A DNA stretch of 64,000 nt from a virus (IMGVR_UViG_3300023173_000013:7021-71020); one strand, 5' to 3'. Shown: positions 23,807-42,439, counted from the stretch's first letter. Program-made: numbers and translations. The notes: generated by a model from the sequence alone, not told the origin.

Positions 23807-23978
23807 CGTTCATTTCTCCTACAAAGACAACATTCTTAGCTCCATGAGGTAAGTCCTTTGGTCTTGTCACTATCTGTTTGAAATAGTCGGGGTGTATCTT
23901 GAGCTTGAGCTTCTGTGATTGGCTACAAGCAACGATTTTCCCCTCTCTGATGAGGTGTCCTATTTTCATTTCTAACAT
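23742..23978 (-). CDS. Hypothetical protein
   Basis: 78-aa ORF coupled to the end of the QueC-like gene. Confidence 0.4.
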   Translation of the reverse strand: MLEMKIGHLIREGKIVACSQSQKLKLKIHPDYFKQIVTRPKDLPHGAKNVVFVGEMNDEERVLWRAYLEANPTIWTTS

Positions 23979-24850
23979 GGTGCTTCTTCTCCTACTTGTT
24001 TTAAGAACTTGAGGTTCTCTTTACATTTCCAACAGACCCCACACATATTCTCATGCTTAGGGGCATGGGGTTTCTTACGATGCCCTGCAAAGAACATTGG
24101 ATTTAAGACGCAAGAGCAAGTCAGTTCAAATAACTCTTTCTCTATGAGTGTCTTGAGTTTCTGTGACTTTGGTAGAGTCGGGTAAAGACCCTTTATTTCA
24201 CCTCCTACATAGCTTGATAAGAATGGTAGAAATGTAGCCATAGATTCTTCTGTGTCAGAGAACCAATCGAGTTCTTCATCATTCTCATCGGACATTGAGT
24301 TAGGGTTATGGAAGATCACGTTATCCTCATCTACAGTAACGAGAACAGAACCGATACGCTCTTTACGGATTAAGTCTTTACATAACATAAGTGCGTATTG
24401 GAGCTTGGCAAGGCTCTCAGGTGTTTCGATCATATTGTCTTCACTTCGGTGGAGCTTTTTAAGCTGTGAGAAGTGCTTGAAAATATGAAGTTCTAGCCCA
24501 AGGGCTTCACAAATCTGAAGCCCTGCTCTTTTTTCTCGACTATTCGTTGCAGGGTTCAGTCCGTCTATGAAGACAGGGTAGAGTGAATACCCATTTTCAA
24601 GGGCGTAAGTGAGTGACCAAGTGCTGTCAATCCCACTTGAGAACAGTACAATACATTTCTTTTCATCTAGCTCAAACTTCTCCTCAGACGAGATCGAGGT
24701 AGACTCAGAAATAGATAGATCGAGTCGGTGGTGGGCTGACATCGCCTTCACAAAAGGCACGAGGTTTGATGGGACGCTAACCTCTTTTTTTATAGGTGTG
24801 AATGTCTCGTAAAACGACACAGCGTCAAATTTAAATTCCTCAAATAACAT
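23972..24850 (-). CDS. QueC-like PP-loop ATPase (7-cyano-7-deazaguanine synthase superfamily)
   Basis: CIVLFSSGIDST PP-loop and the C-terminal Zn motif TCSC...CGVCWKC. Divergent (SSGIDS instead of SGGLDS). Confidence 0.7.
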   Translation of the reverse strand: MLFEEFKFDAVSFYETFTPIKKEVSVPSNLVPFVKAMSAHHRLDLSISESTSISSEEKFELDEKKCIVLFSSGIDSTWSLTYALENGYSLYPVFIDGLNPATNSREKRAGLQICEALGLELHIFKHFSQLKKLHRSEDNMIETPESLAKLQYALMLCKDLIRKERIGSVLVTVDEDNVIFHNPNSMSDENDEELDWFSDTEESMATFLPFLSSYVGGEIKGLYPTLPKSQKLKTLIEKELFELTCSCVLNPMFFAGHRKKPHAPKHENMCGVCWKCKENLKFLKQVGEEAPC

Positions 24851-24853
24851 TTC

Positions 24854-26029
24854 TTAAACTCCAAAAAAGTTGTCTTGTGTCCACTTAGGTTCAGGAGCTT
24901 CCCCTTTACTCCACACCCATACAGGCTCGCAGAAAGTATCGGTTAGCCCGATACCATTTCTCTTGTTGAGTTTGTAGCCAACGACACCCTCATAAGTAGC
25001 ACCCAATGACTCCATATATCTTAACATAGGTGTGCATATATCCTCGCCTTTCTTGTCTGCTATATTGATCGCTATCCGACCACCCTCAGCTAGACAACCC
25101 CATGACTTACTTAGCATGGGAAATAGAAAGCCCTCTAACCATTTATCTGTAGTAGGATAACGCTTCCAACTCTGAGTGTCTTCTTCACTATACCTCTCTA
25201 TGTCAAAGTAAGGTGGGGAAGTAAAAACAAAGTCTACTTTAACATCTGTCAAATCGGCTTCCTCAGCAGGCGAACAGATGAACTTAGTCTCTTTACCTGT
25301 GTTGCAGAAATGGCTGATCTTTCGATAGGGTTCATGTAGCTCAGAGTTTGGGTCTATTCCTATGTAGCTGATCGCATTAGAAGCGTGAAAGCCTACAAGC
25401 CGATCACCCCAACCTGCTGAGGTATCTAACACTCGTTTCGCACCAAAGAAGTCGTATATAGTCTTAGCACATGAGGGCTTGAACTGACTCGCCATATAGG
25501 TGTGCATTTTTAATGCTCGATACAGAGTGCTTTGCTCAATCCCTTTAGTTTCTATTTCTCCCTTGAGTATGCCAAAGAGACATCTAAGAAATGAGTGCTT
25601 TTTATCGGGGTTCTCCCACTCATAAACAGGCGACTTTCCTGAGTGATAACCACATTTCATACGCATAATCTGAGAGTGTTGGTTAGATACTTTCAGACCA
25701 TGATTACCACAGGTAAACACTACAGGCTCTCCCTTATAAAGTAAGGGTGTCTCTTTACTTTGTCGAGGGGCTAACCAAGACTCTTTAGCATAGTTTACTT
25801 CCTCAACCTTGAGCTTTGCCCAATCAGACTTAACCTCTTGTTCTGTGTATTCTCTTACAGGGAAAGGTAAGCCTTTGATTGCTTCGGCTAGTTGCGACTT
25901 TATTTCTTTTTTAGAATAATGGTCGAGCATAGCTAACCATTGGCTAGGGGCTATCATTAGCTTGCTTTCCTTAATTTCTATGTACTCTTGGAGAGCTTTC
26001 TTTTCAGAGGTATATTCAAACAACATCAA
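24854..26029 (-). CDS. SAM-dependent DNA amino-methyltransferase, paralog A (likely ATG start 26026)
   Basis: Motif I VLDTSAGWGDRL precedes motif IV FTSPPYF. Confidence 0.8.
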   Translation of the reverse strand: MMLFEYTSEKKALQEYIEIKESKLMIAPSQWLAMLDHYSKKEIKSQLAEAIKGLPFPVREYTEQEVKSDWAKLKVEEVNYAKESWLAPRQSKETPLLYKGEPVVFTCGNHGLKVSNQHSQIMRMKCGYHSGKSPVYEWENPDKKHSFLRCLFGILKGEIETKGIEQSTLYRALKMHTYMASQFKPSCAKTIYDFFGAKRVLDTSAGWGDRLVGFHASNAISYIGIDPNSELHEPYRKISHFCNTGKETKFICSPAEEADLTDVKVDFVFTSPPYFDIERYSEEDTQSWKRYPTTDKWLEGFLFPMLSKSWGCLAEGGRIAINIADKKGEDICTPMLRYMESLGATYEGVVGYKLNKRNGIGLTDTFCEPVWVWSKGEAPEPKWTQDNFFGV

Positions 26030-26046
26030 TGTAAGTACTCCATTTC

Positions 26047-27228
26047 TTAAACTTCAAAGAAATTGTCTTGAACTTTGGGTTTATCCTCTTGTCCTTTTAG
26101 TATTCTTGTTCCATCTCCAATGTACTCGTGAGAATAACAGAGTCGGTGAGCGTGGGCTTCATAATCAAAGCTAGTATATGCCCCCCTCGCATACTTGTTT
26201 GTCTTGCTGTTGCTCCAATACCCTTTTCTTACTTCGGACATACCCTCATAAGAGCTTCTCCTACTGACTTTATTCATGCTTGTAGGTTTCCAAAGATCAG
26301 AGTTATTTCTGTGTTCTCCTAACTTTGGGTGAGCTGTCTTAGAGAAATAGCGACAGCCCCTGTCATAGAACATCTTAGCAACTATGTTAGATAACCTAGA
26401 CCCTAATCCCATACCTTGAAAGTCAGGTAAGATCACAGTCCTATGTTCTCTCCAAGCATTTCTTAAGTCTCTACTTGGGAAAGGTATCGCAGAACCGAAC
26501 CCACAGATCGTGTTGTTCTCGTTGACCAAGAGCCAACAATGAGCAGACTTGTTTATTTCCGAGCTTAGATAGTGATGATCGCTGAAGACTGCCCACGCTT
26601 CGGTTGAGCAAGGTAGGACTCTAAAATCTGAAGAGAGCCTTTCCGACCTCCCTTCTACGAGCCGTCTCGTTAACGTGTTAGCTACCCAATCGGGCTCTAA
26701 CCAATTTATGACATCTTCGTGACAAGTAGCGATGACTACATTCTTATATCCATCGTGGTCGATTACATTCCTCACACCTATGGAAATAGACTGAGCCAAG
26801 TCTCTATTACAGACAGAAGTAAACTCGTCTATTACGCACCCATCTTTCAGAGTTTTTGCTATATCAGCCCTGTGTTTCTCACCTGTACTTAGAACATGGT
26901 AAGGTCTACACAGAGAGGGGATAGAAGACAGCCCTAATCTCATAAGTAGGTTCGGGTCTACTTGAGAAGCAATCGCTTTACTACTGTCCCAAGTGGTTAT
27001 TTCTTCGCTTCCCATTTCTTTAAGAAGTGTGGACTTGCCTGAGCCACTTGGACCATAAATCACCCCTAGCGAGAAATCTTGAGGCACTTCAAAGCTAGGC
27101 ACTTTGAATGAGCTTTTCCCGTTAAACTTGTAGTCGGAAACCTCGGCTAGTTTCTCAACTATTGGTTCAAGTTCTACTTTTGAGGTGAGGGTTTGCCCTC
27201 CTATTTTTTTGTAATCGAATAAGTCCAT
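26047..27228 (-). CDS. ABC-type ATPase fused to a GNAT acetyltransferase
   Basis: Walker A GPSGSGKST, signature LSTGEKHR, Walker B VIDEF, H-loop ATCH, and the GNAT acetyl-CoA motif RTVILPDFQGMGLG. Confidence 0.85.
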   Translation of the reverse strand: MDLFDYKKIGGQTLTSKVELEPIVEKLAEVSDYKFNGKSSFKVPSFEVPQDFSLGVIYGPSGSGKSTLLKEMGSEEITTWDSSKAIASQVDPNLLMRLGLSSIPSLCRPYHVLSTGEKHRADIAKTLKDGCVIDEFTSVCNRDLAQSISIGVRNVIDHDGYKNVVIATCHEDVINWLEPDWVANTLTRRLVEGRSERLSSDFRVLPCSTEAWAVFSDHHYLSSEINKSAHCWLLVNENNTICGFGSAIPFPSRDLRNAWREHRTVILPDFQGMGLGSRLSNIVAKMFYDRGCRYFSKTAHPKLGEHRNNSDLWKPTSMNKVSRRSSYEGMSEVRKGYWSNSKTNKYARGAYTSFDYEAHAHRLCYSHEYIGDGTRILKGQEDKPKVQDNFFEV

Positions 27229-27231
27229 TTC

Positions 27232-28440
27232 TTAAACTCCAAAGAAATTGTCTTGTGTCCATTTAGGTTCGGGTGCTTCCCCTTTACTCCATATCAGAAT
27301 AGGTTCGCCTCGCTTCTCCGAACCATGATCTTGACGGACAGCTCCGGGTCTGATGTTTATTTCATATCCGACAATACCCTCATAAGTAGCCCCTAAAGAA
27401 TCCATAAAAGAAATGAGGTCTTTAGTGACTTTAAGTTTAGGGTTATCGCAGATGTTAAGGGCTATTCTCCCCCCGACTTTTAGGTGCTTGTAGACTTCTT
27501 CAAGCGTGGCAAACAAGTACCTCTCTTTCCACACTTCAAAGTCGCTATACCTCTTAATAGATTGAGTGTCTTCGTTGCAGTAAAGCTCTACATTGAAATA
27601 GGGTGGTGAGGTAAATACAAAGTCATATTCAAGCTCAGAGTAGTCTACATCTTCAGAGGGCATACAGATCGTTTTTACAGATCGGCTAGGGTCATAAAAC
27701 TTGTGTATTTCATTATAAGGCTGATGTAGCTGAGTGTTAGGGTCAATCCCTATGTAGCTCTTTGCTTCGCTTGCTAGGAAGCCCACAAGCCTATCCCCCC
27801 AACCTGCTGATGGGTCTAGTACATTCTGAGCGTCAAACAGATCGTATAGAGCCTTTGCAACTGAGGGTCGAAACTGAGTCACCATTTGACCCGACAACCT
27901 GCCTGCTCTGATGAAAGTTTTTTGGTCGAACTTATCCTCTAGGTACGCATTTCTGAGAAGCCTATGAGTGCGAGGGTTCACTTCTCCGTTATCCAATAAG
28001 TCCTGCCAAATAAAGGGGAGTGTACCACGCTCGTTTCTACCCTCTAAGTTTCGAGTAGCTTTGAGCCTTATTGGTTGGGTGAACAAGTCTGAGAGAGAGT
28101 TTCCCGACATGGTGCTAGTGGGCAGTAGTAAGTACCCTCCTCTATAAGACAGATCGTGTACCTCTATGTTTTGGTTTTCCCATTTCTCTTTAAGGTACGT
28201 TCTGTCTTGTATTCTGAGCTGAGAGAACTTTTTCTTTTGCTGTCTTTTGTTGTAAGGGAAATAGGGGAAAGGCAGTTGCTTGTCTTTAATGAGCTTCGCC
28301 ATAAACGCAAAGATGTCGTCTCTTGAGAAGTTCTCTTTTATTTCTGAGAGGACTTCTTTGCTCATGTGTATGTGGTTATCTTTGACCCAAACATACTGAT
28401 CTAAACTTGTTTTCTTTGTTTCTTCTAAATCAAATAACAT
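27232..28440 (-). CDS. SAM-dependent DNA amino-methyltransferase, paralog B
   Basis: VLDPSAGWGDRL and FTSPPYF. Confidence 0.8.
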   Translation of the reverse strand: MLFDLEETKKTSLDQYVWVKDNHIHMSKEVLSEIKENFSRDDIFAFMAKLIKDKQLPFPYFPYNKRQQKKKFSQLRIQDRTYLKEKWENQNIEVHDLSYRGGYLLLPTSTMSGNSLSDLFTQPIRLKATRNLEGRNERGTLPFIWQDLLDNGEVNPRTHRLLRNAYLEDKFDQKTFIRAGRLSGQMVTQFRPSVAKALYDLFDAQNVLDPSAGWGDRLVGFLASEAKSYIGIDPNTQLHQPYNEIHKFYDPSRSVKTICMPSEDVDYSELEYDFVFTSPPYFNVELYCNEDTQSIKRYSDFEVWKERYLFATLEEVYKHLKVGGRIALNICDNPKLKVTKDLISFMDSLGATYEGIVGYEINIRPGAVRQDHGSEKRGEPILIWSKGEAPEPKWTQDNFFGV

Positions 28441-29243
28441 CAGAACAAGTACTCCTGTGTTTGGCTTAATCTCTTTTGAGCAATCTTAAAATATTCTTCG
28501 TTAATCTCCGACCCTATGTATTTCCTCTTGGTGATCTTAGCCATCTTAGCTGTAGTTCCTGACCCTAAGAATGGGTCATAAACTAAGTCTCCCTCATTAG
28601 ACCAAGAAATGATGTGATCGTGAGCTAGGTTTTCGGGAAATGTAGCAGGGTGTTCAAAGGCATACACATCTAAGGTTGAATGTCCTCTACCTGTTAAGTA
28701 TGACCAAATGTTGGTTCTCCTACCGAACTCCCCGTATGACCCTCTTGTGATAGGAATAAGCTCTCCATCTTTCAGTCTTTTTGTACCCTTATCCATTTCT
28801 CTTTTCTCTTTATTTTTCCTGTCTTTTATTAAGTTAATTGTCGCAGGAGAACCCTTAGAAAAGACGAACATATATTCAAAAGACTGCCAATAAATCTTAT
28901 TATTCCCTACAGCACCATTTGACCCTTTTTGATATATCATAGTGTCCGTAAGGTTAAGCCCACATTCCATGAAATAGAGAGCCTGTTTGAAGCTAGACCC
29001 TGTTTCACTCCCATCTACTGTAGCGTCACCAACCACCCAAACGATGACCCCACCTTCTTTGATTATCCTACATAACTCTGAGATGATTGGTTTCCAAACA
29101 GACTCACTCCAAGTTTTATCTATCTCGTTATCGTAAGCTCTGAGGTTGTCATAAGGTGGGCTAGTAACCACTAGGTCAATAGACCTATCTTCCATTCTGC
29201 CCATAGTGTCCAAACAGGACTCGTTAAAGATCATGTTTTCCAT
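28440..29243 (-). CDS. Beta-class N4-cytosine/N6-adenine DNA methyltransferase
   Basis: DLVVTSPPY (motif IV) near the N-terminus, HPATFP, then VYDPFLGSGTT (motif I): beta-class order. Confidence 0.9.
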   Translation of the reverse strand: MENMIFNESCLDTMGRMEDRSIDLVVTSPPYDNLRAYDNEIDKTWSESVWKPIISELCRIIKEGGVIVWVVGDATVDGSETGSSFKQALYFMECGLNLTDTMIYQKGSNGAVGNNKIYWQSFEYMFVFSKGSPATINLIKDRKNKEKREMDKGTKRLKDGELIPITRGSYGEFGRRTNIWSYLTGRGHSTLDVYAFEHPATFPENLAHDHIISWSNEGDLVYDPFLGSGTTAKMAKITKRKYIGSEINEEYFKIAQKRLSQTQEYLF

Positions 29244-29246
29244 TTC

Positions 29247-29336
29247 TTAAAATCCAAATAAATCTACTTGTTTCGGTAAGCTCGTATTCTTCAACCATAT
29301 CGCTTCTTGGAAGTTCTGTATCTTCAACCCTTTCAT
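29247..29336 (-). CDS. 29-aa mini-ORF MKGLKIQNFQEAIWLKNTSLPKQVDLFGF (gene remnant or clamp-binding peptide)
   Basis: Manual translation. It fills the gap exactly, starting 1 nt after the upstream TAG, and ends in the same GGA-NTT-TAA-GAA-ATG junction as the neighbouring genes. Confidence 0.5.
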   Translation of the reverse strand: MKGLKIQNFQEAIWLKNTSLPKQVDLFGF

Positions 29337-29337
29337 A

Positions 29338-30531
29338 CTAGACCCCTAAAAACGTGTCAGAGTTCCATTTAGGTTCGAGGGCTTCCCCTTTACTCCACAC
29401 CCATATTGGCTCACAGAAAACCTTACCTACGTTCTCCATATTTTTGCCAGGTCTGCCCCCCATTTGATAACCTAAAACACCCTCATAAGTAGCTCCAAGA
29501 GATTCCATATATCTTAACATGGGCTGACATATTTCCTCTCGCTCTCCATTGGTATAAGCGTCAGCGATATTGACGAGTATTCTGCCCCCGTCTTCAAGAC
29601 ACTCCCAACACTTGGATAAAGTAGGAAATAGAAAGCCCTCTAGCCATGCGTTTATCTTTGGGTATCTCTTCCAACTCTGAGTGTCTTCTTCGCTATATCT
29701 TTCAAGTGTGAAATAAGGTGGCGAGGTAAATACAAAGTCCACCTTAACACCTGTCAAATCGGCTTCCTCAGCAGGCGAACAGATGAGCTTGACCTCTTTA
29801 CCTGTATCACAGAAATGGCTGATCTTTTGATAGGGTTCATGGAGTTTAGAGTTAGGGTCTATCCCTATGTAGCTCTCGGCATTGGAAGCATGAAACCCTA
29901 CTAAGCGATCACCCCAACCTGCTGAGAAGTCTAAGACTCGTCTCGCTTGAAATGTGTTGTAGACTACCTTAGCTGATTCGGGCTTGAACTGACTCGCTAT
30001 GTAAGACCTCATGCTAAGGGCTGATCGCAGGGCTTTGTCGTTCAAGTCTCCATCAAACATATCAGGGTTAAAGATATAGTTCAGAAATGACTTTTTATCG
30101 CTTTGCCAAGCTCGGTGAGGAGACATGAATCTTTGGTGTCCTACTTCCATACGAGCTTCTTGAGTGAACAAGTCTGAGACTTGACCTCCTAGTCGAGCTG
30201 TTGCAGGGATATAGTAAGATTCTCCTCTATATAGAAATGGGACATCTTGAACGAGTCGATTACACTCCCACTCACCTTTTGTGAATAGACTTTCATTATT
30301 CTTGAGCCTGTTAAACTCCTCTTTGACAGAGGATTGGGTGTACTCTCGATAAGGAAATGTAATCTCACCTGTGTTGATGAGTTCTTTAAGGCGATCTAAG
30401 ACTTCTTCTCGACTATAGTGAGAAATGACTTCTTGCCATAGTCCTTTAGAAATGTATAGGTTGCCTTGTACGTCCTTGATTTGACTGAGATCAAGGAGTT
30501 TAGGGGGTTCTTTGTCGTAATCTAAAAACAT
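29338..30531 (-). CDS. SAM-dependent DNA amino-methyltransferase, paralog C
   Basis: VLDFSAGWGDRL and FTSPPYF. The catalytic region is very similar to paralog A. Confidence 0.8.
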   Translation of the reverse strand: MFLDYDKEPPKLLDLSQIKDVQGNLYISKGLWQEVISHYSREEVLDRLKELINTGEITFPYREYTQSSVKEEFNRLKNNESLFTKGEWECNRLVQDVPFLYRGESYYIPATARLGGQVSDLFTQEARMEVGHQRFMSPHRAWQSDKKSFLNYIFNPDMFDGDLNDKALRSALSMRSYIASQFKPESAKVVYNTFQARRVLDFSAGWGDRLVGFHASNAESYIGIDPNSKLHEPYQKISHFCDTGKEVKLICSPAEEADLTGVKVDFVFTSPPYFTLERYSEEDTQSWKRYPKINAWLEGFLFPTLSKCWECLEDGGRILVNIADAYTNGEREEICQPMLRYMESLGATYEGVLGYQMGGRPGKNMENVGKVFCEPIWVWSKGEALEPKWNSDTFLGV

Positions 30532-30533
30532 TG

Positions 30534-31160
30534 TTATTTACCCATTTTAAATGTACCACCAACCTGTAGCTTTTTAGGTGGTACAGCCCATTCATCAACT
30601 ACTTTTTTAGGTTGCTGTTTAGGGGTTTCGTCAAGCCCTCCAATGATGATTTCTTGGGGGGCAGTATTCATCTGCCTTGTGAAAGGTTTCACAGGCTCAG
30701 AGGTTTTTATAGGCTCTGTAAGATTAGGTTCAGGACTAGGAGCAACCCTACTAACAGGCTCAGCAGAAACGACATCATCGTGTGTCTCAGTAGGTACTCG
30801 ATCTCCTTGTCCGTCTTCGGTGACAATATCAATCTTAACAGGTTCTTTTTCCACTTTAACTTGAGGAGCAACTCCCCAAATTTCTGTTGTAGTGGGTGCT
30901 TGAAATAACTCAAAATCTACAATCCCTTCCCACCGAGAAGACTCATTCTGAGCCACGATGTTGGGGTTGTGTAGGAAACGATCTGCTTGGGTGCTGATAC
31001 GTTCTTCCCAAGATGAAGAAGCCCACTTTGCTCTATCGCAGGACTTATTCTTACACCTCTTACAGAAGATCGAGGTAAACTCGTTTTCGGGGATTCTTTG
31101 GTCATTGCACTCGCCTAACAGATCGTTTTTCATACTTATCTCCTTATATAAATAAAGCAC
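30534..31160 (-). CDS. Hypothetical protein with a Cys-rich N-terminus (likely start 31133)
   Basis: C..FC..C.N..C pattern and a Pro-rich tail. AAGGAG lies upstream of the ATG at 31133. Confidence 0.5.
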   Translation of the reverse strand: MLYLYKEISMKNDLLGECNDQRIPENEFTSIFCKRCKNKSCDRAKWASSSWEERISTQADRFLHNPNIVAQNESSRWEGIVDFELFQAPTTTEIWGVAPQVKVEKEPVKIDIVTEDGQGDRVPTETHDDVVSAEPVSRVAPSPEPNLTEPIKTSEPVKPFTRQMNTAPQEIIIGGLDETPKQQPKKVVDEWAVPPKKLQVGGTFKMGK

Positions 31161-33840
31161 TCACATCTTTATTGTTATACTGCACGATACCTCCCTCATT
31201 CTCAACTAACCAAAGGGCTACATTTCTAGCTTCTTCTTTAGTTAGCTCACCTATTGTGTAGACAGGCTTAGAGGGTTCAGACTTGACCTCTTTTTTGGGA
31301 GCCTGCTCCTCACTCCCTTGCTCATAGAAGATACGACCTAAAGACTCAGGTACAGGTACTTGTATTTCCTTGTATTTCTTCTTGCCTTCCTCGTCTACGC
31401 CATCAGGCACGAGCTTTTCTTTATAGCCACGCTTGAGGTCTTTGAGGTCATAAGGGACACCCCAAGTCTTACCGATCTCTACGTCTACAAGTAGAGGTAC
31501 AGCCCAACCTTGATTAGCGATACCTTTATTTCTCGACATGAGATTGGTGAGTACAGGGATAGCTTCACCGATTACGTCTTCATGTATCTCAAAAACGATT
31601 TCGTCATGGACAGTCAGAATCATCTTGAGCTTATCGAACCAACCACGCTTCTTGACCTCTTTATAGATCAGACTCATAGCGAGCTTGGTGATGTCTGCAC
31701 TCGTACCCTGCACAGGGCCATTCACAGCTTTACGCTCGTCTTTTGATTTCTTTCTGAAGTCACCCTCATTAATGTCAGGTAGGGGCTGAACACGACCAAA
31801 AGCTGTCTTTACATAGCCATGCTTACGACCAAAGTCATGTTGGTGAGTCCACCACTTCGCAAGAGTCTTATAAGTGCCTGTGAACTTCCTGTATTTCTCC
31901 TCACCCTCTTGAGCCGAGCAACCGATAGTACGCTGTACGGCTTTACCTGTCCCACCATAAGAGAGAGCAAAGTTACACCCTTTGCCATTTCCTCGCTTGT
32001 CTTTCCAATCGGGCAAATTCTTAGCGTTCTCGCCATAGAAAGCAACTGCTGTGACGGTGTGAAGATCGCCTATTCGGTCAGAGCCACAAACGCAATAAGT
32101 GGGGGTTGCTTTAGGGATATTATCATCATTCATTTCCTGTGGGTATTGTTTCCCACAATCTGAACACTCGAAGAACGCTTTAACCCATAGAGGTTCTTTG
32201 CTGAGGTTGGTGACTAAGCGAAGCTCAACACCTGCATAGTCGATTGCGACTAGCCACCACCCATCACCTCTTGAAGCGATACAATCACGCATATAAGAAA
32301 TGATAGCAGGCTTCTTGTCCTTGTCTTTCCCATAAGCAGGAATACCTTGAAATGGTACTCTACAGCCCCCGTCTTTGACTTCCCAAGGCTTAGAGGTGGA
32401 CTTGCAAGAGAAACGACCTGTATCAGCCGCAAACTGATCGAAGCGAGGTTTCAGAGTTCCGTCTTTACCCACATCTTCGACAAAGGGGATAAGGTATTGA
32501 CCGAGAGCTTTAGAGAGGAAACGTAAGTTCTTAACTTTCCCCATGAATGGGAAGTCTTTCTCAGCTTTTTCGATCACATCATCAAGCACATCGCCTGCTG
32601 TGACTACTTGACCCGATTTCTCAGAGGCGATGAGGTTAGGTACTTTTAACTCACGAAATAAGAGTCCAAGTTGCTGAGGAGACATAATGTCATAGACGAT
32701 AGGGAAATCGATTTTCTCAGTCCCTGCTTCCTTGCCCACGAGAGCCACGTTTTTTGAGATGACTTGAACAGGGTCGGGGTAGTTTCTTTTCGCTTCCTTG
32801 CGAGCTTCATCAACTCTAATCTTATAGGACATCTTAGAGTCATTTCCTACGTCATCGGGTTCAAAGATGTTGATCGCACCTTTGATCTCACCTTTCATTA
32901 TCCGAAGGTAGTTAGGGGTTATATCTCGACCTAAGATTTCACTTGCTCCGTCATATACTTCAAGCAAACTTTCCCACCATAGGCGTTGCCCTTCTTTACA
33001 AGACTCTAAGGCTCTATTTCTGTCTACATACACTCTGCTTCTGTGCATCCAACTTACTGAAACGAGGCACATTTTTTCTAAGTTGTAGATTGAATCTGAG
33101 TGTTCGGGTGCGTCTACATATTGACCTCTTAGAATGTTCCATACACGAAGCGTACAGAGAGGGTCAGCCGCAGCGTACCATACACAAGGCTCCCAACTTG
33201 GGTCGAGGGTGGCGTAATCCTTAATCTTCTCATCGGGGATTAGCTCGTTGAGTTCGATCATCTTCATACCACAGAGTTGATCTGATAGAGCCTTCAGTCC
33301 TCGCCCACCTTTTTGGCGAGGGTTAAGCAGGTACTTAACAATGAGGGTGTCTTCCCATTTCTTATGATCGTCCCACCGATCTACCCCAAGAGGGAAGAAG
33401 CCGTTATACTCAAGAAATACGGAGTCAAATGCGATGTTGTGGAAGACAGGATTAGCCTTAGTGTCAGGGTGAAATAGCCTCCCAAACTCTTTGCCGACCA
33501 TAGACCAAGGAATGTTATATTCTGAGCCTGCTCTGTGTCCGATTGGGAAATAGTAAGCCTTGTCGGGTGTGGGTGCGAGTCCGATACCCACGATAGAGTC
33601 AACTGTTCTGCCGTCAAAAACTCGGTTATCAAGCCCCGTAGTTTCAATGTCACAGCCATATATTTCTGAAGCGATACACTCATCAATCGCTTGGGTGAGG
33701 TTTTCTTTAGTGCCAAGTATCAACTCAACATCGTTCATCCAATCGTACTTTTCGATTGAGGGCTTTCTGAGGTCTGCTAGGAAATCGTCAAACAAGGGCT
33801 TCTCCTTACTCTGTTTATATGTGAGGGTTATGAAGTACAT
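31144..33840 (-). CDS. polA: DNA polymerase, family A, with a 3'-5' exonuclease domain (probable TTG start at 33795)
   Basis: ExoI DIETTG, ExoII HNIAFD, ExoIII YAAAD; motif A IDYAGVELR, motif B RGNGKGCNFALSYGG, motif C TVHDEIVFE. Confidence 0.95.
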   Translation of the reverse strand: MYFITLTYKQSKEKPLFDDFLADLRKPSIEKYDWMNDVELILGTKENLTQAIDECIASEIYGCDIETTGLDNRVFDGRTVDSIVGIGLAPTPDKAYYFPIGHRAGSEYNIPWSMVGKEFGRLFHPDTKANPVFHNIAFDSVFLEYNGFFPLGVDRWDDHKKWEDTLIVKYLLNPRQKGGRGLKALSDQLCGMKMIELNELIPDEKIKDYATLDPSWEPCVWYAAADPLCTLRVWNILRGQYVDAPEHSDSIYNLEKMCLVSVSWMHRSRVYVDRNRALESCKEGQRLWWESLLEVYDGASEILGRDITPNYLRIMKGEIKGAINIFEPDDVGNDSKMSYKIRVDEARKEAKRNYPDPVQVISKNVALVGKEAGTEKIDFPIVYDIMSPQQLGLLFRELKVPNLIASEKSGQVVTAGDVLDDVIEKAEKDFPFMGKVKNLRFLSKALGQYLIPFVEDVGKDGTLKPRFDQFAADTGRFSCKSTSKPWEVKDGGCRVPFQGIPAYGKDKDKKPAIISYMRDCIASRGDGWWLVAIDYAGVELRLVTNLSKEPLWVKAFFECSDCGKQYPQEMNDDNIPKATPTYCVCGSDRIGDLHTVTAVAFYGENAKNLPDWKDKRGNGKGCNFALSYGGTGKAVQRTIGCSAQEGEEKYRKFTGTYKTLAKWWTHQHDFGRKHGYVKTAFGRVQPLPDINEGDFRKKSKDERKAVNGPVQGTSADITKLAMSLIYKEVKKRGWFDKLKMILTVHDEIVFEIHEDVIGEAIPVLTNLMSRNKGIANQGWAVPLLVDVEIGKTWGVPYDLKDLKRGYKEKLVPDGVDEEGKKKYKEIQVPVPESLGRIFYEQGSEEQAPKKEVKSEPSKPVYTIGELTKEEARNVALWLVENEGGIVQYNNKDVSALFI

Positions 33841-34661: not shown

Positions 34662-36218
34662 ATGCCTTCTTATGATGACTTAAATGTTCGGGACAGAAAA
34701 GAACAGATCAAGCACGTTAAAGCTACGGAGAGAGCAATCTCTACGATTGCTAGAAATGTAGCTAAAAAAGGGTTAGTTTTTGATTCAGTTAAAGACTTTA
34801 TTTCTGACGCTCAAGGTATGAGAAATATACAGTCTTTTCTCGACAAGTATGCAGGCAAAGAAATAGAGGGTCATGGTAATCCTCGTAATGTTAGAAGCAT
34901 CGCACAGAACAGAGCTAAACTCCTTAGAGCCTTAGCTAAGATTGTGGTTGAAGGGGCTTCCATTTCCGACCCTGAAATACAAGACCAAGTTACGTTGTCT
35001 GCTGAGCTAGGTTTCGAGTACAAGTTCTTGGGTACAGAGCAACAAAGTTTGAGAGATGCCCTAGAGGTAGACATCAGGAAATTCTTACCTCGCAATCTTG
35101 TTTTAGATGTGGATAAAGCAGGTAAGGTGACAGGTGTTCGTGAGCGTGTAGGAAATCAGATCAGAAGCCTTACGCATAAGCACAACATACTCGTTCAGAC
35201 TATTGGGAAATATAACTCTATGTTAACGTCTGTGAAAGCAGACCTCATGTCATCGAATAACGAGAGGGACACCCTTAACGCTATCCTTACAGCTATTATG
35301 TTAGAGACAGGAGTTCGTGTTGGTGGTGGTAGACCTGGCAAAACGATTAAGAAACTTGCAGACGGCACTAAAGTAGAAGTAAAAACTTTCGGCTTAACCG
35401 AGCTTCGACCTTCTCATGTCAAGAGCTTGCAAGCGAGCCGTTTTGAAATAGAGTTAGTTGGGAAATACGGTAACACTCTTCTTTATGAGATGACTGATTC
35501 TGATATTGCTACAGCTCTCAAGCCTTATGTGGATAAAGCAACTTTAGATGCAGGAATGGACTTGGGAACTCCGTCTAAAGAGCCTCCTGTTTTTAGAGGT
35601 TTGAATGGTTGGAGATACGACTACACGAAGCTCATTAAGTATATAGATCGTAAGTTTGGGCAGTTCGATATGAAGCCTCACGATTTCCGTATGCTTTTCG
35701 CTAATAGGAGATTGTTTGAGGTTATGGAGGGAGATCAAGAGCAACTACACGAAGATGTGAAAGCCCTTGTAGACGCAGGTACTCAGAATCTCCAAGAAGC
35801 AGTGGCTACTAGAGTGACTCAGTTTATTAATGATGCGATTAAGGCTGTCTCCGATTCCCTGCACCACTCAGAAATGGGTAGTGCGATTGACTACTATATC
35901 GCCCCTAACTTTGTTTTGAATTTCCTTCATCAAGGCTACATTGAAAGAAATATAAGCAAGGCTGTCGCACAAGGTTATGACACAGTATCTTTTGACATAC
36001 AGAAGTTCATTGATGTTGCGAACCTATTTGGGACTGATTCTTATCCTCTCAAGAGAGCTACTGATCTTTCACAGCTTCTTCAAGCTATGGACAGTGAAAT
36101 GGGCGAGGTGACAGGTAGTTATGACCTTAGTTCGCTCTTAGAGGACATGGATAGTGAAATGGGCGAGGTGACAGGTTCTATCATGGGCATAAGAGCCTTA
36201 AGAAGTAAAAGAGGATAA
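34662..36218 (+). CDS. DNA topoisomerase IB-like tyrosine phosphotransferase, paralog 1
   Basis: LETGVRVG (Arg), TFGLTEL, LVGKYG (Lys), HDFR (Arg), HHSE (His) and IDYYIAP (Tyr, nine residues after His). Confidence 0.75.
   Translation: MPSYDDLNVRDRKEQIKHVKATERAISTIARNVAKKGLVFDSVKDFISDAQGMRNIQSFLDKYAGKEIEGHGNPRNVRSIAQNRAKLLRALAKIVVEGASISDPEIQDQVTLSAELGFEYKFLGTEQQSLRDALEVDIRKFLPRNLVLDVDKAGKVTGVRERVGNQIRSLTHKHNILVQTIGKYNSMLTSVKADLMSSNNERDTLNAILTAIMLETGVRVGGGRPGKTIKKLADGTKVEVKTFGLTELRPSHVKSLQASRFEIELVGKYGNTLLYEMTDSDIATALKPYVDKATLDAGMDLGTPSKEPPVFRGLNGWRYDYTKLIKYIDRKFGQFDMKPHDFRMLFANRRLFEVMEGDQEQLHEDVKALVDAGTQNLQEAVATRVTQFINDAIKAVSDSLHHSEMGSAIDYYIAPNFVLNFLHQGYIERNISKAVAQGYDTVSFDIQKFIDVANLFGTDSYPLKRATDLSQLLQAMDSEMGEVTGSYDLSSLLEDMDSEMGEVTGSIMGIRALRSKRG
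36063..36182 (+). repeat. 60-bp tandem duplication encoding DLSxLLxxMDSEMGEVTGS twice
   Basis: ATGGA(C/T)AGTGAAATGGGCGAGGTGACAGGT is repeated at a 60-nt period. Confidence 0.9.
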
Positions 36219-40978: not shown

Positions 40979-42439
40979 TTATGTGGTTTCTTGGATATGC
41001 TCTACTAAGCTAAGTAGATTTTCACCTAGTTTCATTTCTAGGTCGTCTACGAGATTCTGAAGATTAGTGCCTCTCTTTTGGATAGGTCCAATCATAACAG
41101 CTTCGTCAAGAAATGCGTCTAGGTTGAAAGTAAGGTGTTTGGGGTTTGTCATTACAGCGTCTTCCAACTTTTCTCCTACCTTACCCTCTGAGAGAAACTT
41201 TAAGACTACAGTAGGGTTGATGTAGTAAGACACAGTAGTATCAAACTCACCATGACTGATTGCTTCTTGTGCATTTCTAATCGCTTGGTTGACAGTATCT
41301 GTTATTTCCTGTGTCGCTCTCTCTTTGAGACTTTCAGCCTGCTCATTAGCGAACTCTCTAATCTTATAAAGCAGATCAACTTTTTTGTTCTTTAGGTGGT
41401 TAAAGACTTCTTGTGTTGCCTTGAGCTTACGGAAATCAGTAAGGGTTAGGTTAGTGTCTTTGACGATCTTCTTAAAGTACCTGTTTAACTGATCTCCTGT
41501 AATTACATCTCCATCAGGTCTTGTAAACAGAAATGGGTCTATCCCTAGCTCATTTCTGGTTATTTCAGCTTCAGTCGCAAGATTTCTCAATTCTGCCAGG
41601 ACTTGGGGGTCACTTAGATAAGCTACATTTTCGGTGTACGCTTTCCCTCTAAACCTCACTTCAATCTGATCGCCATCTTTACCGATCAAGTCCTTAATGA
41701 AGCTCAATTTCAGAGTTCTAGCACCAAAGGTTTCCATTTCAATATATTCACCCTCCTCATCTTTTAGGTATTTCCCGTCCATACCTTTCATCTTAGAAAT
41801 ACCTTCACCCATAGCAGGTCGGATTCCTGTTTCCATGATGATCGCCACAATCAAGGCTTTGACTCTTAAAAAGACATCATTAGACATCAGGTCGCTCTTT
41901 ACCACATCTACGATATGGTTATATCTTTTAAGGAGTGTGGTCATCTTCTTAATCTTATAGTTTACATCGTCTACTTCGTTGACGAACAAGTCGGTGATAT
42001 ATTGTATTTCGCCTGTGGAATCTACATCAACGGCTAGAGTTTTAGGTAGGAACTTCCTTAACTCTTCGGGGATAGTGTTAAGATAGTTCTCTTGCCCCTC
42101 GTCCATCATTCTGCCCTTGACGTACTCTTCTACGAGCTTCCATATCTTATTAAAAACAGGTTTTTCTTCCCCTGCTTTCTTTCCATGAAAGTACTCAACA
42201 AAAGCACTTACTAGGCTCTTTTGAATGTCTTTATCAGCAAACTCGAAATGTGAGCTAACAAAGTCTTTGTATGCAGGGTTCAGTAAGACCAACTCAGCGA
42301 TCTTCTTTTTGTTAAGCAACTCGCCCAAGTTCCCTACTGTCGAGATCATCTGTCTTAAAACGACAGCACTAGCTTTTACTGCATCACTTTGTGATTCTCG
42401 AAGAAAGTCTATTTCCCCACCTGCCTGTAAATGTCTCAT
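40979..42439 (-). CDS. DNA topoisomerase IB-like tyrosine phosphotransferase, paralog 2
   Basis: METGIRPA (Arg), TFGARTL, FRGKA (Lys), TDFRK (Arg), SHGE (His) and VSYYINP (Tyr). Shares KFLP..L..DVD and VK.DLMS with paralog 1. Confidence 0.75.
   Translation of the reverse strand: MRHLQAGGEIDFLRESQSDAVKASAVVLRQMISTVGNLGELLNKKKIAELVLLNPAYKDFVSSHFEFADKDIQKSLVSAFVEYFHGKKAGEEKPVFNKIWKLVEEYVKGRMMDEGQENYLNTIPEELRKFLPKTLAVDVDSTGEIQYITDLFVNEVDDVNYKIKKMTTLLKRYNHIVDVVKSDLMSNDVFLRVKALIVAIIMETGIRPAMGEGISKMKGMDGKYLKDEEGEYIEMETFGARTLKLSFIKDLIGKDGDQIEVRFRGKAYTENVAYLSDPQVLAELRNLATEAEITRNELGIDPFLFTRPDGDVITGDQLNRYFKKIVKDTNLTLTDFRKLKATQEVFNHLKNKKVDLLYKIREFANEQAESLKERATQEITDTVNQAIRNAQEAISHGEFDTTVSYYINPTVVLKFLSEGKVGEKLEDAVMTNPKHLTFNLDAFLDEAVMIGPIQKRGTNLQNLVDDLEMKLGENLLSLVEHIQETT

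What the first reader, a model, noticed from the sequence alone, without database searches (positions are those of the whole stretch)
23972..30531. DNA-modification cassette whose unrelated enzymes share a C-terminal Q-x-x-[LF]-F tail (clamp-binding-like tag)
Seen: six consecutive ORFs downstream of the DNA polymerase end in related tails. These are MTase A ...WTQDNFFGV, ABC-GNAT ...KVQDNFFEV, MTase B ...WTQDNFFGV, beta-MTase ...TQEYLF, the mini-ORF ...KQVDLFGF and MTase C ...NSDTFLGV (degenerate). Three different folds carry the tail. The last 66 nt of MTases A and B (24848-24913 vs 27226-27291) differ at only 5 positions, all synonymous, which points to selection on the peptide. The polymerase itself ends in VSALFI. 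Established: bacterial beta-clamp partners bind through a QL[SD]LF-type pentapeptide, often at the C-terminus. Inference: the phage tethers a set of methylases and a base-modifying acyltransferase to the replisome clamp so that nascent DNA is modified co-replicationally, with new enzymes joining by acquiring the tail.
Basis: partly seen in the sequence, partly recalled or inferred. Interest (0 to 1): 0.85.

Follow-up and report, generated by a model that had tools for sequence, protein, structure and literature searches.

The report
Clamp-docking tails on phage DNA-modifying enzymes
In this fragment of an uncultured giant phage, DNA methylases of three classes and a predicted DNA-acylating enzyme all end in the same short aromatic peptide, which most likely hooks them onto the phage's own replication clamp so that new DNA is modified as it is copied; binding has not been measured.

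Summary
Five intact enzymes and one gene remnant downstream of the family-A polymerase end in a hydrophobic-aromatic tail. The tail is kept in related IMG/VR phages and occurs there on further folds.

- **Selection acts on the peptide.** In the QDNFF core, synonymous sites are saturated and pN/pS is 0.28, the same as in the enzyme body.
- **The tail is an add-on.** Many distant ABC-GNAT and methylase homologs stop at the domain end. Fifteen ABC-GNAT relatives carry the textbook beta-clamp peptide Q-x-x-[LM]-F at the extreme C-terminus instead.
- **A clamp exists in the lineage.** A near-complete collinear relative (275 kb) encodes a DnaX-like clamp loader and a 419-aa protein that no Pfam model matched, yet it folds as a DnaN beta clamp.

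- The mini-ORF is the last 29 codons of a deleted Dam-type methylase.
- Q is only partly conserved.
- The final Gly-Val (GGAGTT) also serves as the ribosome-binding site of the next gene.
- MTase C's tail is a conserved variant, not decay.

No binding has been shown, and the window's own contig (about 23% complete) does not reach a clamp gene. This scan has noted similar tails on methylases in at least seven other phage genomes. I found no paper describing this.

The parts
31144..33840 (-). Family-A DNA polymerase with 3'-5' exonuclease. It ends ..KDVSALFI (tail codons 31147-31161).
   Evidence: PF00476 E 3.9e-63 and PF01612. The C-terminal R-D-[IV]-T-x-L-[FL] is conserved in about 50 homologs down to 48% identity.
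29338..30531 (-). MT400-C, a ~400-aa amino-methyltransferase paralog. Head MFLDY, tail ..PKWNSDTFLGV (29341-29361).
   Evidence: PF01555 32 bits. It is 76% identical to the G001 ortholog, which ends ..KSDTFLGV. See alignment A2.
29247..29336 (-). Remnant of a D12/Dam-class methyltransferase. It is 29 codons long and ends ..PKQVDLFGF (29250-29270).
   Evidence: It matches the last 29 residues of the intact 237-aa genes L007:7342-8052 (PF02086) and L002, which end ..KQVDLFGI and ..KQLDLFGL.
28440..29243 (-). Beta-class N6/N4 DNA methyltransferase. Its tail ..SQTQEYLF (28443-28457) lies beyond the Pfam domain.
   Evidence: PF01555 E 1e-40 covers residues 22-257 of 267. The L007 ortholog ends ..TQEYFF.
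27232..28440 (-). MT400-B paralog. Head MLFDL, tail ..PKWTQDNFFGV (27235-27255).
   Evidence: Its 3' end is 92% identical to that of MT400-A, against 60% gene-wide.
26047..27228 (-). ABC-ATPase/GNAT fusion, a predicted DNA-base acyltransferase. Head MDLFDY. A 21-aa extension follows the family core (..SHEYIG) and ends QDNFFEV (26050-26070).
   Evidence: phrog_11143 E 2.6e-83 covers residues 15-372 of 393, and GNAT PF00583 also hits. The function is predicted in PMC7824862.
24854..26029 (-). MT400-A paralog. Head MLFEY, tail ..PKWTQDNFFGV (24857-24877).
   Evidence: The AF2 model has pLDDT 94. Its last strand is residues 365-374, residues 375-391 are coil, and confidence drops over 381-391. The Rossmann half is nearest to Trm11-type amino-MTases.
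23972..24850 (-). QueC-like PP-loop protein at the end of the array. It has the MLFEEF head but no aromatic tail (ends ..GEEAPC).
   Evidence: PF06508 and phrog_1550. It serves as the contrast case: the adjacent non-methylase, non-acyltransferase enzymes (here, and the TS-like, Asn-synthase-like and PALP proteins in L002) lack the tail.

Best explanation
The tails are clamp-binding motifs. Each enzyme that works on polymeric DNA carries a short C-terminal hydrophobic-aromatic peptide on a flexible linker. These enzymes are three methylase classes and the ABC-GNAT predicted base acyltransferase, plus a FemAB-like GNAT and an unknown protein in relatives. The core is [QSK]-[DE]-[NT]-[FY]-[FL], with the variants Q-V-D-L-F and Q-E-Y-[LF]-F.

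The peptide would insert into the hydrophobic cleft of the phage-encoded, divergent DnaN-type sliding clamp. That clamp is loaded by a phage DnaX-like loader. The family-A polymerase would contact the same clamp through its own conserved C-terminal ..T-x-L-F.

Clamps on or left behind at replicating DNA would then concentrate the whole modification set on newly made DNA, before host nucleases can reach it. New enzymes would join the set by gaining a tail.

**Shown:** the tails, their conservation, their add-on nature, peptide-level selection, flexible termini, and a DnaN-fold clamp plus loader in a collinear relative.

**Inferred:** that the tail binds that clamp rather than the host clamp or another partner, and that modification is coupled to replication.

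The final G-V codons (GGAGTT) additionally serve as the Shine-Dalgarno site of the tightly coupled downstream gene.
For: 1. **Conservation across genomes and folds.**
   - Related IMG/VR loci L001, L002, L007, L008 and L010 keep tails on the MT400 paralogs, the Dam-class MTase (..KQVDLFGI, ..KQLDLFGL), the beta-MTase (..QEYFF) and the ABC-GNAT.
   - They also occur on a FemAB/LPG-synthase-like GNAT (..PNTYFGV) and a 347-aa unknown protein (..PQTYFGV).
2. **Selection on the peptide, not the DNA.**
   - Across 15 MT400 genes the QDNFF core has pS 0.93 and pN/pS 0.28. The gene body has pS 0.78 and pN/pS 0.29.
   - Phe codons alternate between TTT and TTC, and Tyr substitutes for Phe.
3. **The tail is an appended module.**
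   - The ABC-GNAT core ends at C[YF]SHEYIG.
   - Of 117 homologs, 62 stop there and 55 carry an extension of at least 12 aa.
   - 43 of those 55 end in the aromatic motif. 15 end in Q-x-x-[LM]-F-COOH (QPSLF, QLTLF, QLNLF, QESLF), which is the Dalrymple beta-clamp pentapeptide cited in PMC9690074.
   - In the wider MT400 family, 26 of 44 C-terminal extensions end in the motif, against a 6.5% null rate (p = 4e-20).
4. **A clamp exists in the lineage.**
   - G001 (275 kb, 88% complete) is collinear with the window's contig. 54 of 76 ORFs match at a mean identity of 58%, and PolA is 74% identical.
   - It encodes a DnaX-like loader (PF13177, E 1.5e-23).
   - It also encodes a 419-aa protein whose AF2 model (pLDDT 93, pTM 0.88) matches DnaN structures at Foldseek E 2.5e-21 and TM 0.71-0.78.
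   - The family profile of that protein hits DnaN in the PDB at E 4.5e-11.
   - Clamp and PolA homologs are both listed with longest contigs of identical length (247,547, 296,515 and 316,823 bp), so they probably lie on the same large contigs.
5. **Flexible placement.** In the MTase A model, residues 375-391 are coil with lower confidence.
6. **Only DNA-polymer enzymes carry the tail.** The QueC-like, thymidylate-synthase-like, Asn-synthase-like and PALP neighbours lack it.
7. **An independent parallel in a cultured phage.** The ABC-GNAT of the T4-like Aeromonas phage PX29 ends ..GLDFMFGI, and its gp43 polymerase ends ..SLTDLFGDW. That genome has a gp45 clamp.
Against: - No binding has been measured or modelled with confidence.
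- The clamp gene is not on the window's own 71-kb contig, nor on three other fragments. For this phage it is inferred from a relative with about 58% mean protein identity.
- The commonest tail (D-N-F-F-G-V) is not a canonical QL[SD]LF. Q is present in only 7 of 16 MT400 genes.
- Part of the tail (G-V) is explained by an overlapping ribosome-binding site. The Gly codon is GGA or GGG in 21 of 21 tails, against 45% genome-wide, and GGAG sits at the usual -12 position.
- Within this genome the near-identical 3' ends of MTase A, MTase B and the ABC-GNAT point to gene conversion. The within-genome similarity alone therefore overstates selection.
- The MT400 linker is short, only about 9 residues after the last strand.
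Confidence: 0.6

Rival explanations
1. The tails are docking peptides for a shared partner other than the sliding clamp. Candidates are the family-A polymerase, the DnaB-like or SNF2 helicase, an SSB, or a scaffold that assembles the modification enzymes into one complex. The N-terminal [LF]-F-[DE] heads might take part in such an assembly.
For: - The tails are conserved, flexible and shared across folds. That requires a common reader but does not name it.
- The commonest tail is not canonical.
- Three families also share an N-terminal M-x(0-2)-[LF]-F-[DEN] head, whose rate at internal Met residues is only 0.6%.
- The cassette sits next to the polymerase here and next to the helicase in L001 and L007.
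Against: - Orthologous ABC-GNATs carry textbook beta-clamp pentapeptides at the same position.
- The lineage encodes a clamp and a loader.
- A T4-like phage's ABC-GNAT tail resembles its own polymerase's tail.
- No alternative receptor has been identified.
Confidence: 0.2
2. The shared ends are a by-product of DNA-level constraints and cassette turnover. A conserved junction (..TTTGGAGTTTAAGAAATG..) gives translational coupling and acts as a recombination linker. Gene conversion spreads it among neighbouring genes, and the peptide has no function.
For: - GGAG within the G-V codons lies 12 nt before the next ATG, which is the usual SD position in this lineage.
- The Gly codon is always GGR.
- pS is lower in G-V (0.45) than elsewhere.
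- The last 24 nt of the ABC-GNAT differ from those of MTase B at one base, and the 3' ends of A and B are 92% identical against 60% gene-wide.
- Chimeric and deleted genes show frequent recombination. Examples are the window's Dam remnant and the L002 58-aa beta-MTase/MT400 chimera.
Against: - Synonymous sites in the QDNFF core are saturated, while the residues are kept.
- Tails without G-V exist (..QEYLF, ..QESLF, ..HTPFF).
- Tails persist on genes with no coupled downstream gene. Examples are the last MT400 of L002, which faces a convergent gene, and the second ABC-GNAT of L010.
- The motif recurs in distant family members from unrelated contigs.
Confidence: 0.12
3. The tails are recognised by the host. 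They bind the host DnaN to hijack or poison host replication, or they act as C-terminal degrons that time enzyme turnover.
For: - Canonical Q-x-S-L-F tails in relatives would fit a bacterial beta clamp.
- Phage proteins that use host clamp motifs are known, for example MuC (bioRxiv 10.1101/2025.01.04.631326).
Against: - The lineage has its own clamp and loader.
- Tails occur only on DNA-modifying enzymes, not on typical takeover proteins.
- No degron-like consensus is evident.
- The host is unknown.
Confidence: 0.08

Closest known systems
Bacterial beta-clamp-binding motif clients (QL[SD]LF pentapeptide or QLxLxL hexapeptide on Pol II, III, IV and V, delta, Hda, MutS/L and ligase)
   Same: A short hydrophobic peptide sits at a flexible, usually C-terminal, end of unrelated DNA enzymes. 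Relatives of the ABC-GNAT carry exact Q-x-[ST]-L-F-COOH. A DnaN-fold clamp is present in the lineage.
   Different: The clients are DNA-modification enzymes, which I did not find reported as beta-clamp clients. The main tail, D-N-F-F-G-V, departs from the consensus. The presumed receptor is a phage-encoded clamp only 12-16% identical to cellular DnaN, in which 'CDGFGL' replaces the cellular DnaN motif at the aligned position (SDGFRL in T. maritima; that this motif lines the peptide cleft, as TDGHRL in E. coli, is from memory).
DNMT1-PCNA (PIP-box-mediated replication-coupled maintenance methylation in eukaryotes)
   Same: A DNA methyltransferase is recruited to newly replicated DNA through a clamp-binding peptide (PMC9690074).
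   Different: The clamp type differs (beta versus PCNA), and so do the motif (not Qxx[ILM]xx[FY][FY]) and its position. Here a whole set of enzymes, including a non-methylase, shares the tag. The likely purpose is protection from restriction rather than epigenetic inheritance.
C-terminal gp45-binding tails of T4-family gp43, gp33 and gp55 (recalled from memory), with the PX29 example examined here
   Same: A phage-encoded clamp is read by C-terminal hydrophobic tails on several phage proteins. The PX29 ABC-GNAT ends ..GLDFMFGI and its gp43 ends ..SLTDLFGDW.
   Different: The clamp here is DnaN-type and dimeric, not gp45/PCNA-type. The polymerase is family A, not family B.
ABC-ATPase + GNAT predicted DNA-base acylation system (Iyer et al.; PMC7824862)
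   Same: It belongs to the same protein family (phrog_11143) and lies in the same genomic context among DNA-modification genes.
   Different: That work does not describe terminal docking motifs. Here the family divides into tail-less members, canonical Q-x-S-L-F members and QDNFFGV members.

Membership tests
Beta-clamp-binding-motif (CBM) clients | A short Q-x-x-[LMF]-F-type peptide in an exposed, flexible terminus | tested here: met
   QVDLF, QEYLF and QDNFF lie at or within 2 residues of the C-terminus. The MTase A tail is coil with lower pLDDT after the last strand. Q is only partly conserved in MT400.
Beta-clamp-binding-motif (CBM) clients | The motif is conserved in orthologs and absent from tail-less homologs (modular add-on) | tested here: met
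   Fifteen ABC-GNAT relatives have canonical Q-x-x-[LM]-F-COOH.
Beta-clamp-binding-motif (CBM) clients | A DnaN-type clamp is available in the same system | tested here: inconclusive
   A clamp is present in the collinear relative G001. None is present on the window's own 23%-complete contig.
Beta-clamp-binding-motif (CBM) clients | The motif physically binds the hydrophobic cleft between clamp domains II and III | not testable with these tools
   This needs ITC, SPR or a co-structure.
PIP-box proteins (PCNA clients, e.g. DNMT1) | Q-x-x-[ILM]-x-x-[FY]-[FY] | tested here: not met
   The window's tails lack the aliphatic residue at position 4 and the 8-residue spacing. The lineage's clamp is DnaN-type, not PCNA-type.
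N6/N4 DNA amino-methyltransferases (PF01555) | Pfam match over the gathering score, and a (D/S)PP(Y/F) motif | tested here: met
   The beta-MTase scores 140 bits. MT400-C scores 32 bits, which is over the cutoff, while MT400-A and MT400-B score 22-26 bits, just under it. All have TSPPYF. That the MT400 substrate is DNA is inferred from context. The nearest solved folds are Trm11-type tRNA amino-MTases.
ABC-ATPase/GNAT predicted DNA acyltransferase (phrog_11143) | Full-length profile match with a Walker A motif and a GNAT acetyl-CoA domain | tested here: met
   phrog_11143 E 2.6e-83, PF00583 E 3.3e-8, and a P-loop at residues 55-72. The chemistry is untested.
DnaN beta sliding clamp (for the G001 419-aa protein) | A three-domain beta-clamp fold and sequence-profile homology | tested here: met
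   Foldseek E 2.5e-21 and TM 0.71-0.78 to DnaN structures. The profile matches PDB DnaN at E 4.5e-11. The single-sequence Pfam scan and the genome-wide PF00712 and PF02768 searches found nothing.

The most novel reading that the evidence does not exclude
This group of giant phages may run a private 'tool-belt'. A divergent phage DnaN clamp has an altered cleft ('CDGFGL' in place of the cellular DnaN motif at that position) and reads a phage-specific tail dialect (D-N-F-F). That would insulate it from the host clamp. Any DNA-modifying enzyme (methylases of three classes, an ATP-driven base acyltransferase, a FemAB-like aminoacyl transferase) would plug in simply by gaining the tail.

The equally conserved, flexible N-terminal [DS]-L-F / [LF]-F-[DE] heads on the MT400, ABC-GNAT and QueC-like proteins could be a second clamp-binding motif. 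Together with the tail, they would give bivalent binding to the two cleft sites of the clamp dimer.
Probability: 0.25. Interest if true: 0.85.

Novelty: new variant of a known kind. Interest (0 to 1): 0.7.

Why it matters
If the tails bind the clamp, phages couple DNA modification to replication in the way animals couple DNMT1 to PCNA. Here, though, a whole interchangeable set of enzymes would be involved.

- **It would explain a timing problem.** A 300-kb genome could be fully protected before host nucleases reach unmodified DNA.
- **It gives a sequence signature.** A C-terminal aromatic tail beyond the catalytic domain would help pick out enzymes that act on DNA among uncharacterised phage proteins such as the ABC-GNAT.
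- **It points to a missing replisome part.** PMC7824862 reported some T7-like-polymerase jumbo phages with a clamp loader but no detectable clamp. The divergent DnaN found here could be that missing part, although whether this lineage belongs to that group was not tested.
- **It suggests a way to disarm phage anti-restriction.** A single interface could be targeted, which matters for phage-host studies and for engineering.

Tried and rejected
- **Co-fold.** I co-folded the G001 clamp (alignment A1) with the last 44 residues of a G001 MT400 (alignment A2) using complex prediction. The result was 'no answer' (ipSAE 0.01 and 0.00, controls not run). This counts neither for nor against binding. 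Five earlier attempts failed because the machine was busy.
- **Pfam DnaN searches.** PF00712 and PF02768 found nothing on the window's genome or on four related records. The clamp was found only by noticing a DnaN-like N-terminus, then folding the protein and searching with its family profile.
- **Search for cultured relatives.**
  - Megablast of the cassette against GenBank phages gave no match.
  - tblastn of the clamp gave one uncultured 485-kb phage.
  - No cultured relative was found, and the host remains unknown.
- **Paralogy alone.** Rejected, because the tail occurs on at least 5 unrelated families and is absent from many distant homologs of each.
- **RBS or U-rich element alone.** Rejected for the aromatic core, but accepted for the terminal G-V.
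- **The mini-ORF as an independent tagged peptide gene.** Rejected in favour of a deletion remnant.
- **PIP-box reading.** Rejected on spacing and on clamp type.
- **Clamp-cleft mapping.** I could not map cleft residues in 3D, because model coordinates are not exposed to scripts.

Full report
**What is in the window.** The window is bases 7021-71020 of a 71,020-bp IMG/VR virus record that CheckV rates about 23% complete. It is therefore a fragment of a much larger phage. On the minus strand, downstream of a family-A DNA polymerase (31144-33840), lie the following genes:

| Coordinates | Gene | C-terminus |
|---|---|---|
| 30534-31160 | conserved 208-aa protein | no tail |
| 29338-30531 | MT400-C | ..NSDTFLGV |
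| 29247-29336 | 29-codon ORF | ..KQVDLFGF |
| 28440-29243 | beta-class N6/N4 methylase | ..TQEYLF |
| 27232-28440 | MT400-B | ..TQDNFFGV |
| 26047-27228 | ABC-ATPase/GNAT fusion | ..VQDNFFEV |
| 24854-26029 | MT400-A | ..TQDNFFGV |
| 23972-24850 | QueC-like PP-loop protein | no tail |

No other ORF of the contig ends this way. The two genes are otherwise only 60% identical at the nucleotide level.

**Conservation elsewhere.** Ten related IMG/VR loci were fetched with MT400-A and the ABC-GNAT as queries.
- Their cassettes keep the tails and extend them to more folds.
  - L007 and L002 have an intact 237-aa D12/Dam-class methylase ending ..KQVDLFGI or ..KQLDLFGL.
  - L008 has a FemAB/LPG-synthase-like GNAT (..PNTYFGV) and a 347-aa unknown protein (..PQTYFGV).
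  - L010 has two ABC-GNATs ending ..QQESLF and ..IQGSLF.
- The window's mini-ORF aligns residue for residue with the last 29 residues of the Dam-class gene. It is a deletion remnant, not a gene in its own right.
- Neighbouring enzymes that are neither methylases nor acyltransferases lack the tail. These are the QueC-like, thymidylate-synthase-like, Asn-synthase-like and PALP proteins.

**Peptide or DNA constraint?**
- A Nei-Gojobori count over 15 MT400 genes gives pS 0.93 and pN/pS 0.28 for the five core codons. The enzyme body gives pS 0.78 and pN/pS 0.29. The aromatic core is therefore kept at the protein level.
- The last two codons behave differently, with pS 0.45 and pN 0.04.
  - Their Gly codon is GGA in 17 of 21 tails and GGG in 4 of 21. 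It is never GGT or GGC, although those two make up 55% of Gly codons genome-wide.
  - GGAG then lies 12 nt before the next ATG ('GGAGTTTAAGAAATG'). That is the modal Shine-Dalgarno position in this lineage.
  - The terminal G-V is therefore dual-coded.
- Within this genome, the 3' ends of MT400-A and MT400-B and the last 24 nt of the ABC-GNAT are nearly identical. This points to local gene conversion.
- Chimeric and truncated genes in the cassettes show that turnover is high.

**The tail is an add-on that grades into the textbook motif.**
- The ABC-GNAT family core ends at C[YF]SHEYIG.
  - Among its 120 best homologs, 62 stop at the core and 55 have an extension of at least 12 aa.
  - 43 of those 55 end in ([FY][FL]|[LIM]F)x0-2.
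  - 15 end in Q-x-x-[LM]-F at the very C-terminus, for example QPSLF, QLTLF, QLNLF and QESLF. This is the beta-clamp pentapeptide QL[SD]LF described in PMC9690074.
- In the wider MT400 family (representatives at 50% identity), most members stop 1-3 residues after the last strand (..EPIWIWRK). Of 44 members with an extension, 26 end in the motif, against a positional null of 6.5% (p = 4e-20).
- In the AF2 model of MT400-A (pLDDT 94), the last strand is residues 365-374, and everything after it is coil with falling confidence.

**Is there a clamp?**
- Pfam DnaN models found nothing in the window's contig or in four related records.
- The 275-kb relative G001 (88% complete) is collinear with the window's contig. 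54 of 76 ORFs match at a mean identity of 58%, PolA is 74% identical and the helicase 84%.
- G001 encodes a DnaX-like clamp loader (PF13177, E 1.5e-23).
- About 14 kb from that loader it encodes a 419-aa protein with no Pfam match.
  - Its 83 homologs come from large contigs, and three are named sliding clamp by JGI.
  - Its AF2 model (pLDDT 93, pTM 0.88) matches DnaN crystal structures at Foldseek E 2.5e-21 and TM 0.71-0.78, at 12-16% identity.
  - Its family profile hits T. maritima and H. pylori DnaN at about 1e-10.
  - In that alignment the phage 'CDGFGL' lies opposite the DnaN motif 'SDGFRL'. From memory, the equivalent TDGHRL of E. coli lines the peptide-binding cleft.
- Clamp and PolA homologs are listed with longest contigs of the same length (247,547, 296,515 and 316,823 bp), so they probably share those contigs.
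- The polymerase's C-terminal R-D-[IV]-T-x-L-[FL] is conserved across about 50 homologs.
- In G001, every detectable methylase ORF (8 of 8) carries a tail, against 19 of 278 other ORFs (p = 2e-9).

**An independent parallel.** In the cultured T4-like Aeromonas phage PX29, which has a gp45 clamp, the ABC-GNAT ends ..KSGLDFMFGI. The gp43 polymerase ends ..KKTSLTDLFGDW.

**Best reading and its limits.**
- The most economical explanation is that the tails dock DNA-modifying enzymes onto the phage's own DnaN-type clamp. That would concentrate them on replicating DNA. I put this at about 0.6.
- It rests on motif likeness, modularity and the presence of the clamp in a relative, not on any binding evidence.
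- The one co-fold I could run gave no verdict.
- The rivals are another shared partner (0.2), junction or gene-conversion by-product (0.12), and a host-directed role (0.08).

**Comparison with what is known.**
- Beta-clamp motifs on polymerases and repair proteins are established, as is DNMT1-PCNA coupling (PMC9690074).
- The ABC-GNAT was predicted to acylate DNA bases (PMC7824862).
- A phage transcription factor that uses the host clamp has been reported (bioRxiv 10.1101/2025.01.04.631326).
- I found no paper describing clamp-binding tails on phage or bacterial DNA-modification enzymes.
- This scan has recorded comparable tails on methylases in at least seven other phage genomes. The phenomenon therefore looks general.
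- What this window adds:
  - non-methylase clients;
  - the gradation to canonical Q-x-S-L-F within one family;
  - a divergent DnaN in a family-A-polymerase giant-phage lineage;
  - the dual-coded G-V/SD junction.

Noticed in passing
window 23972-30531 (N-termini), L001, L007, L008, L010: Three unrelated families begin with a shared flexible head M-x(0-2)-[LF]-F-[DEN]. MT400 has MLFEY, MLFDL or MFLDY, the ABC-GNAT has MDLFDY, and the QueC-like protein has MLFEEF (MLFETT in L008). The rate at internal Met residues is 0.6%. In the wider ABC-GNAT family, an N-terminal [DSG]-L-F-[DES] before ..IGG is common even in tail-less members. Residues 1-10 of the MT400-A model have pLDDT 69. This could be a second docking motif.
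   Followed up: partly
L023:14864-16123 (+) and L023:642-1952 (-) (G001 254864-256123 and 240642-241952): The giant-phage relative encodes a 419-aa DnaN-fold sliding clamp with no Pfam match and a DnaX-like clamp loader, alongside a T7-like family-A polymerase. PMC7824862 noted jumbo phages with such a polymerase and a clamp loader but 'no detectable clamp'.
   Followed up: yes
L025:1471-2649 and L030:1472-4234 (Aeromonas phage PX29, GU396103.1): In this T4-like phage the ABC-GNAT homolog ends ..KSGLDFMFGI and the gp43 polymerase ends ..KKTSLTDLFGDW. The tails are of a similar L-x-x-[LM]-F-G type, and the genome has a gp45 clamp.
   Followed up: partly
L002:4885-5061, G001 146987-147277 and 76996-77124, L008:3745-4977: Debris in the cassettes shows rapid gene turnover. 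There is a 58-aa chimera of a beta-MTase N-terminus and an MT400 C-terminus that keeps the tail. There is a 96-aa beta-MTase fragment ending ..QTQEYFF. A 42-aa ORF matches the ABC-GNAT. One MT400 has Cys in place of the expected stop, so its tail is followed by 9 extra residues (..QDTYFGVCEVGHVGKP).
   Followed up: partly
G001 246254-248217 (L023:6254-8217): An N6_N4 methylase is split into an N-terminal ORF (193 aa) and a C-terminal ORF (233 aa, ending ..LSIFDLF), with two small ORFs between them. This may be an inserted element.
   Followed up: no
window 20769, 21281, 47469; G001 (at least a dozen ORFs): Many otherwise different proteins start with M(M)RRTASE[IV]L.. or a close variant.
   Followed up: no
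window 30534-31160 (-): A conserved 208-aa protein always follows the polymerase in L002, L004 and L007 as well. It has an N-terminal Cys-rich segment, a low-complexity middle and a conserved end ..GGTFKMG. It has no Pfam or PHROG match, so it could be a polymerase accessory factor.
   Followed up: no
window 40979-42439 (-) and 34662-36218 (+): There is a weak eukaryotic-type topoisomerase IB match (PF01028, E 1e-5) in the 486-aa protein. A 518-aa paralog-like protein is also present (31% identity via the G001 homolog).
   Followed up: no
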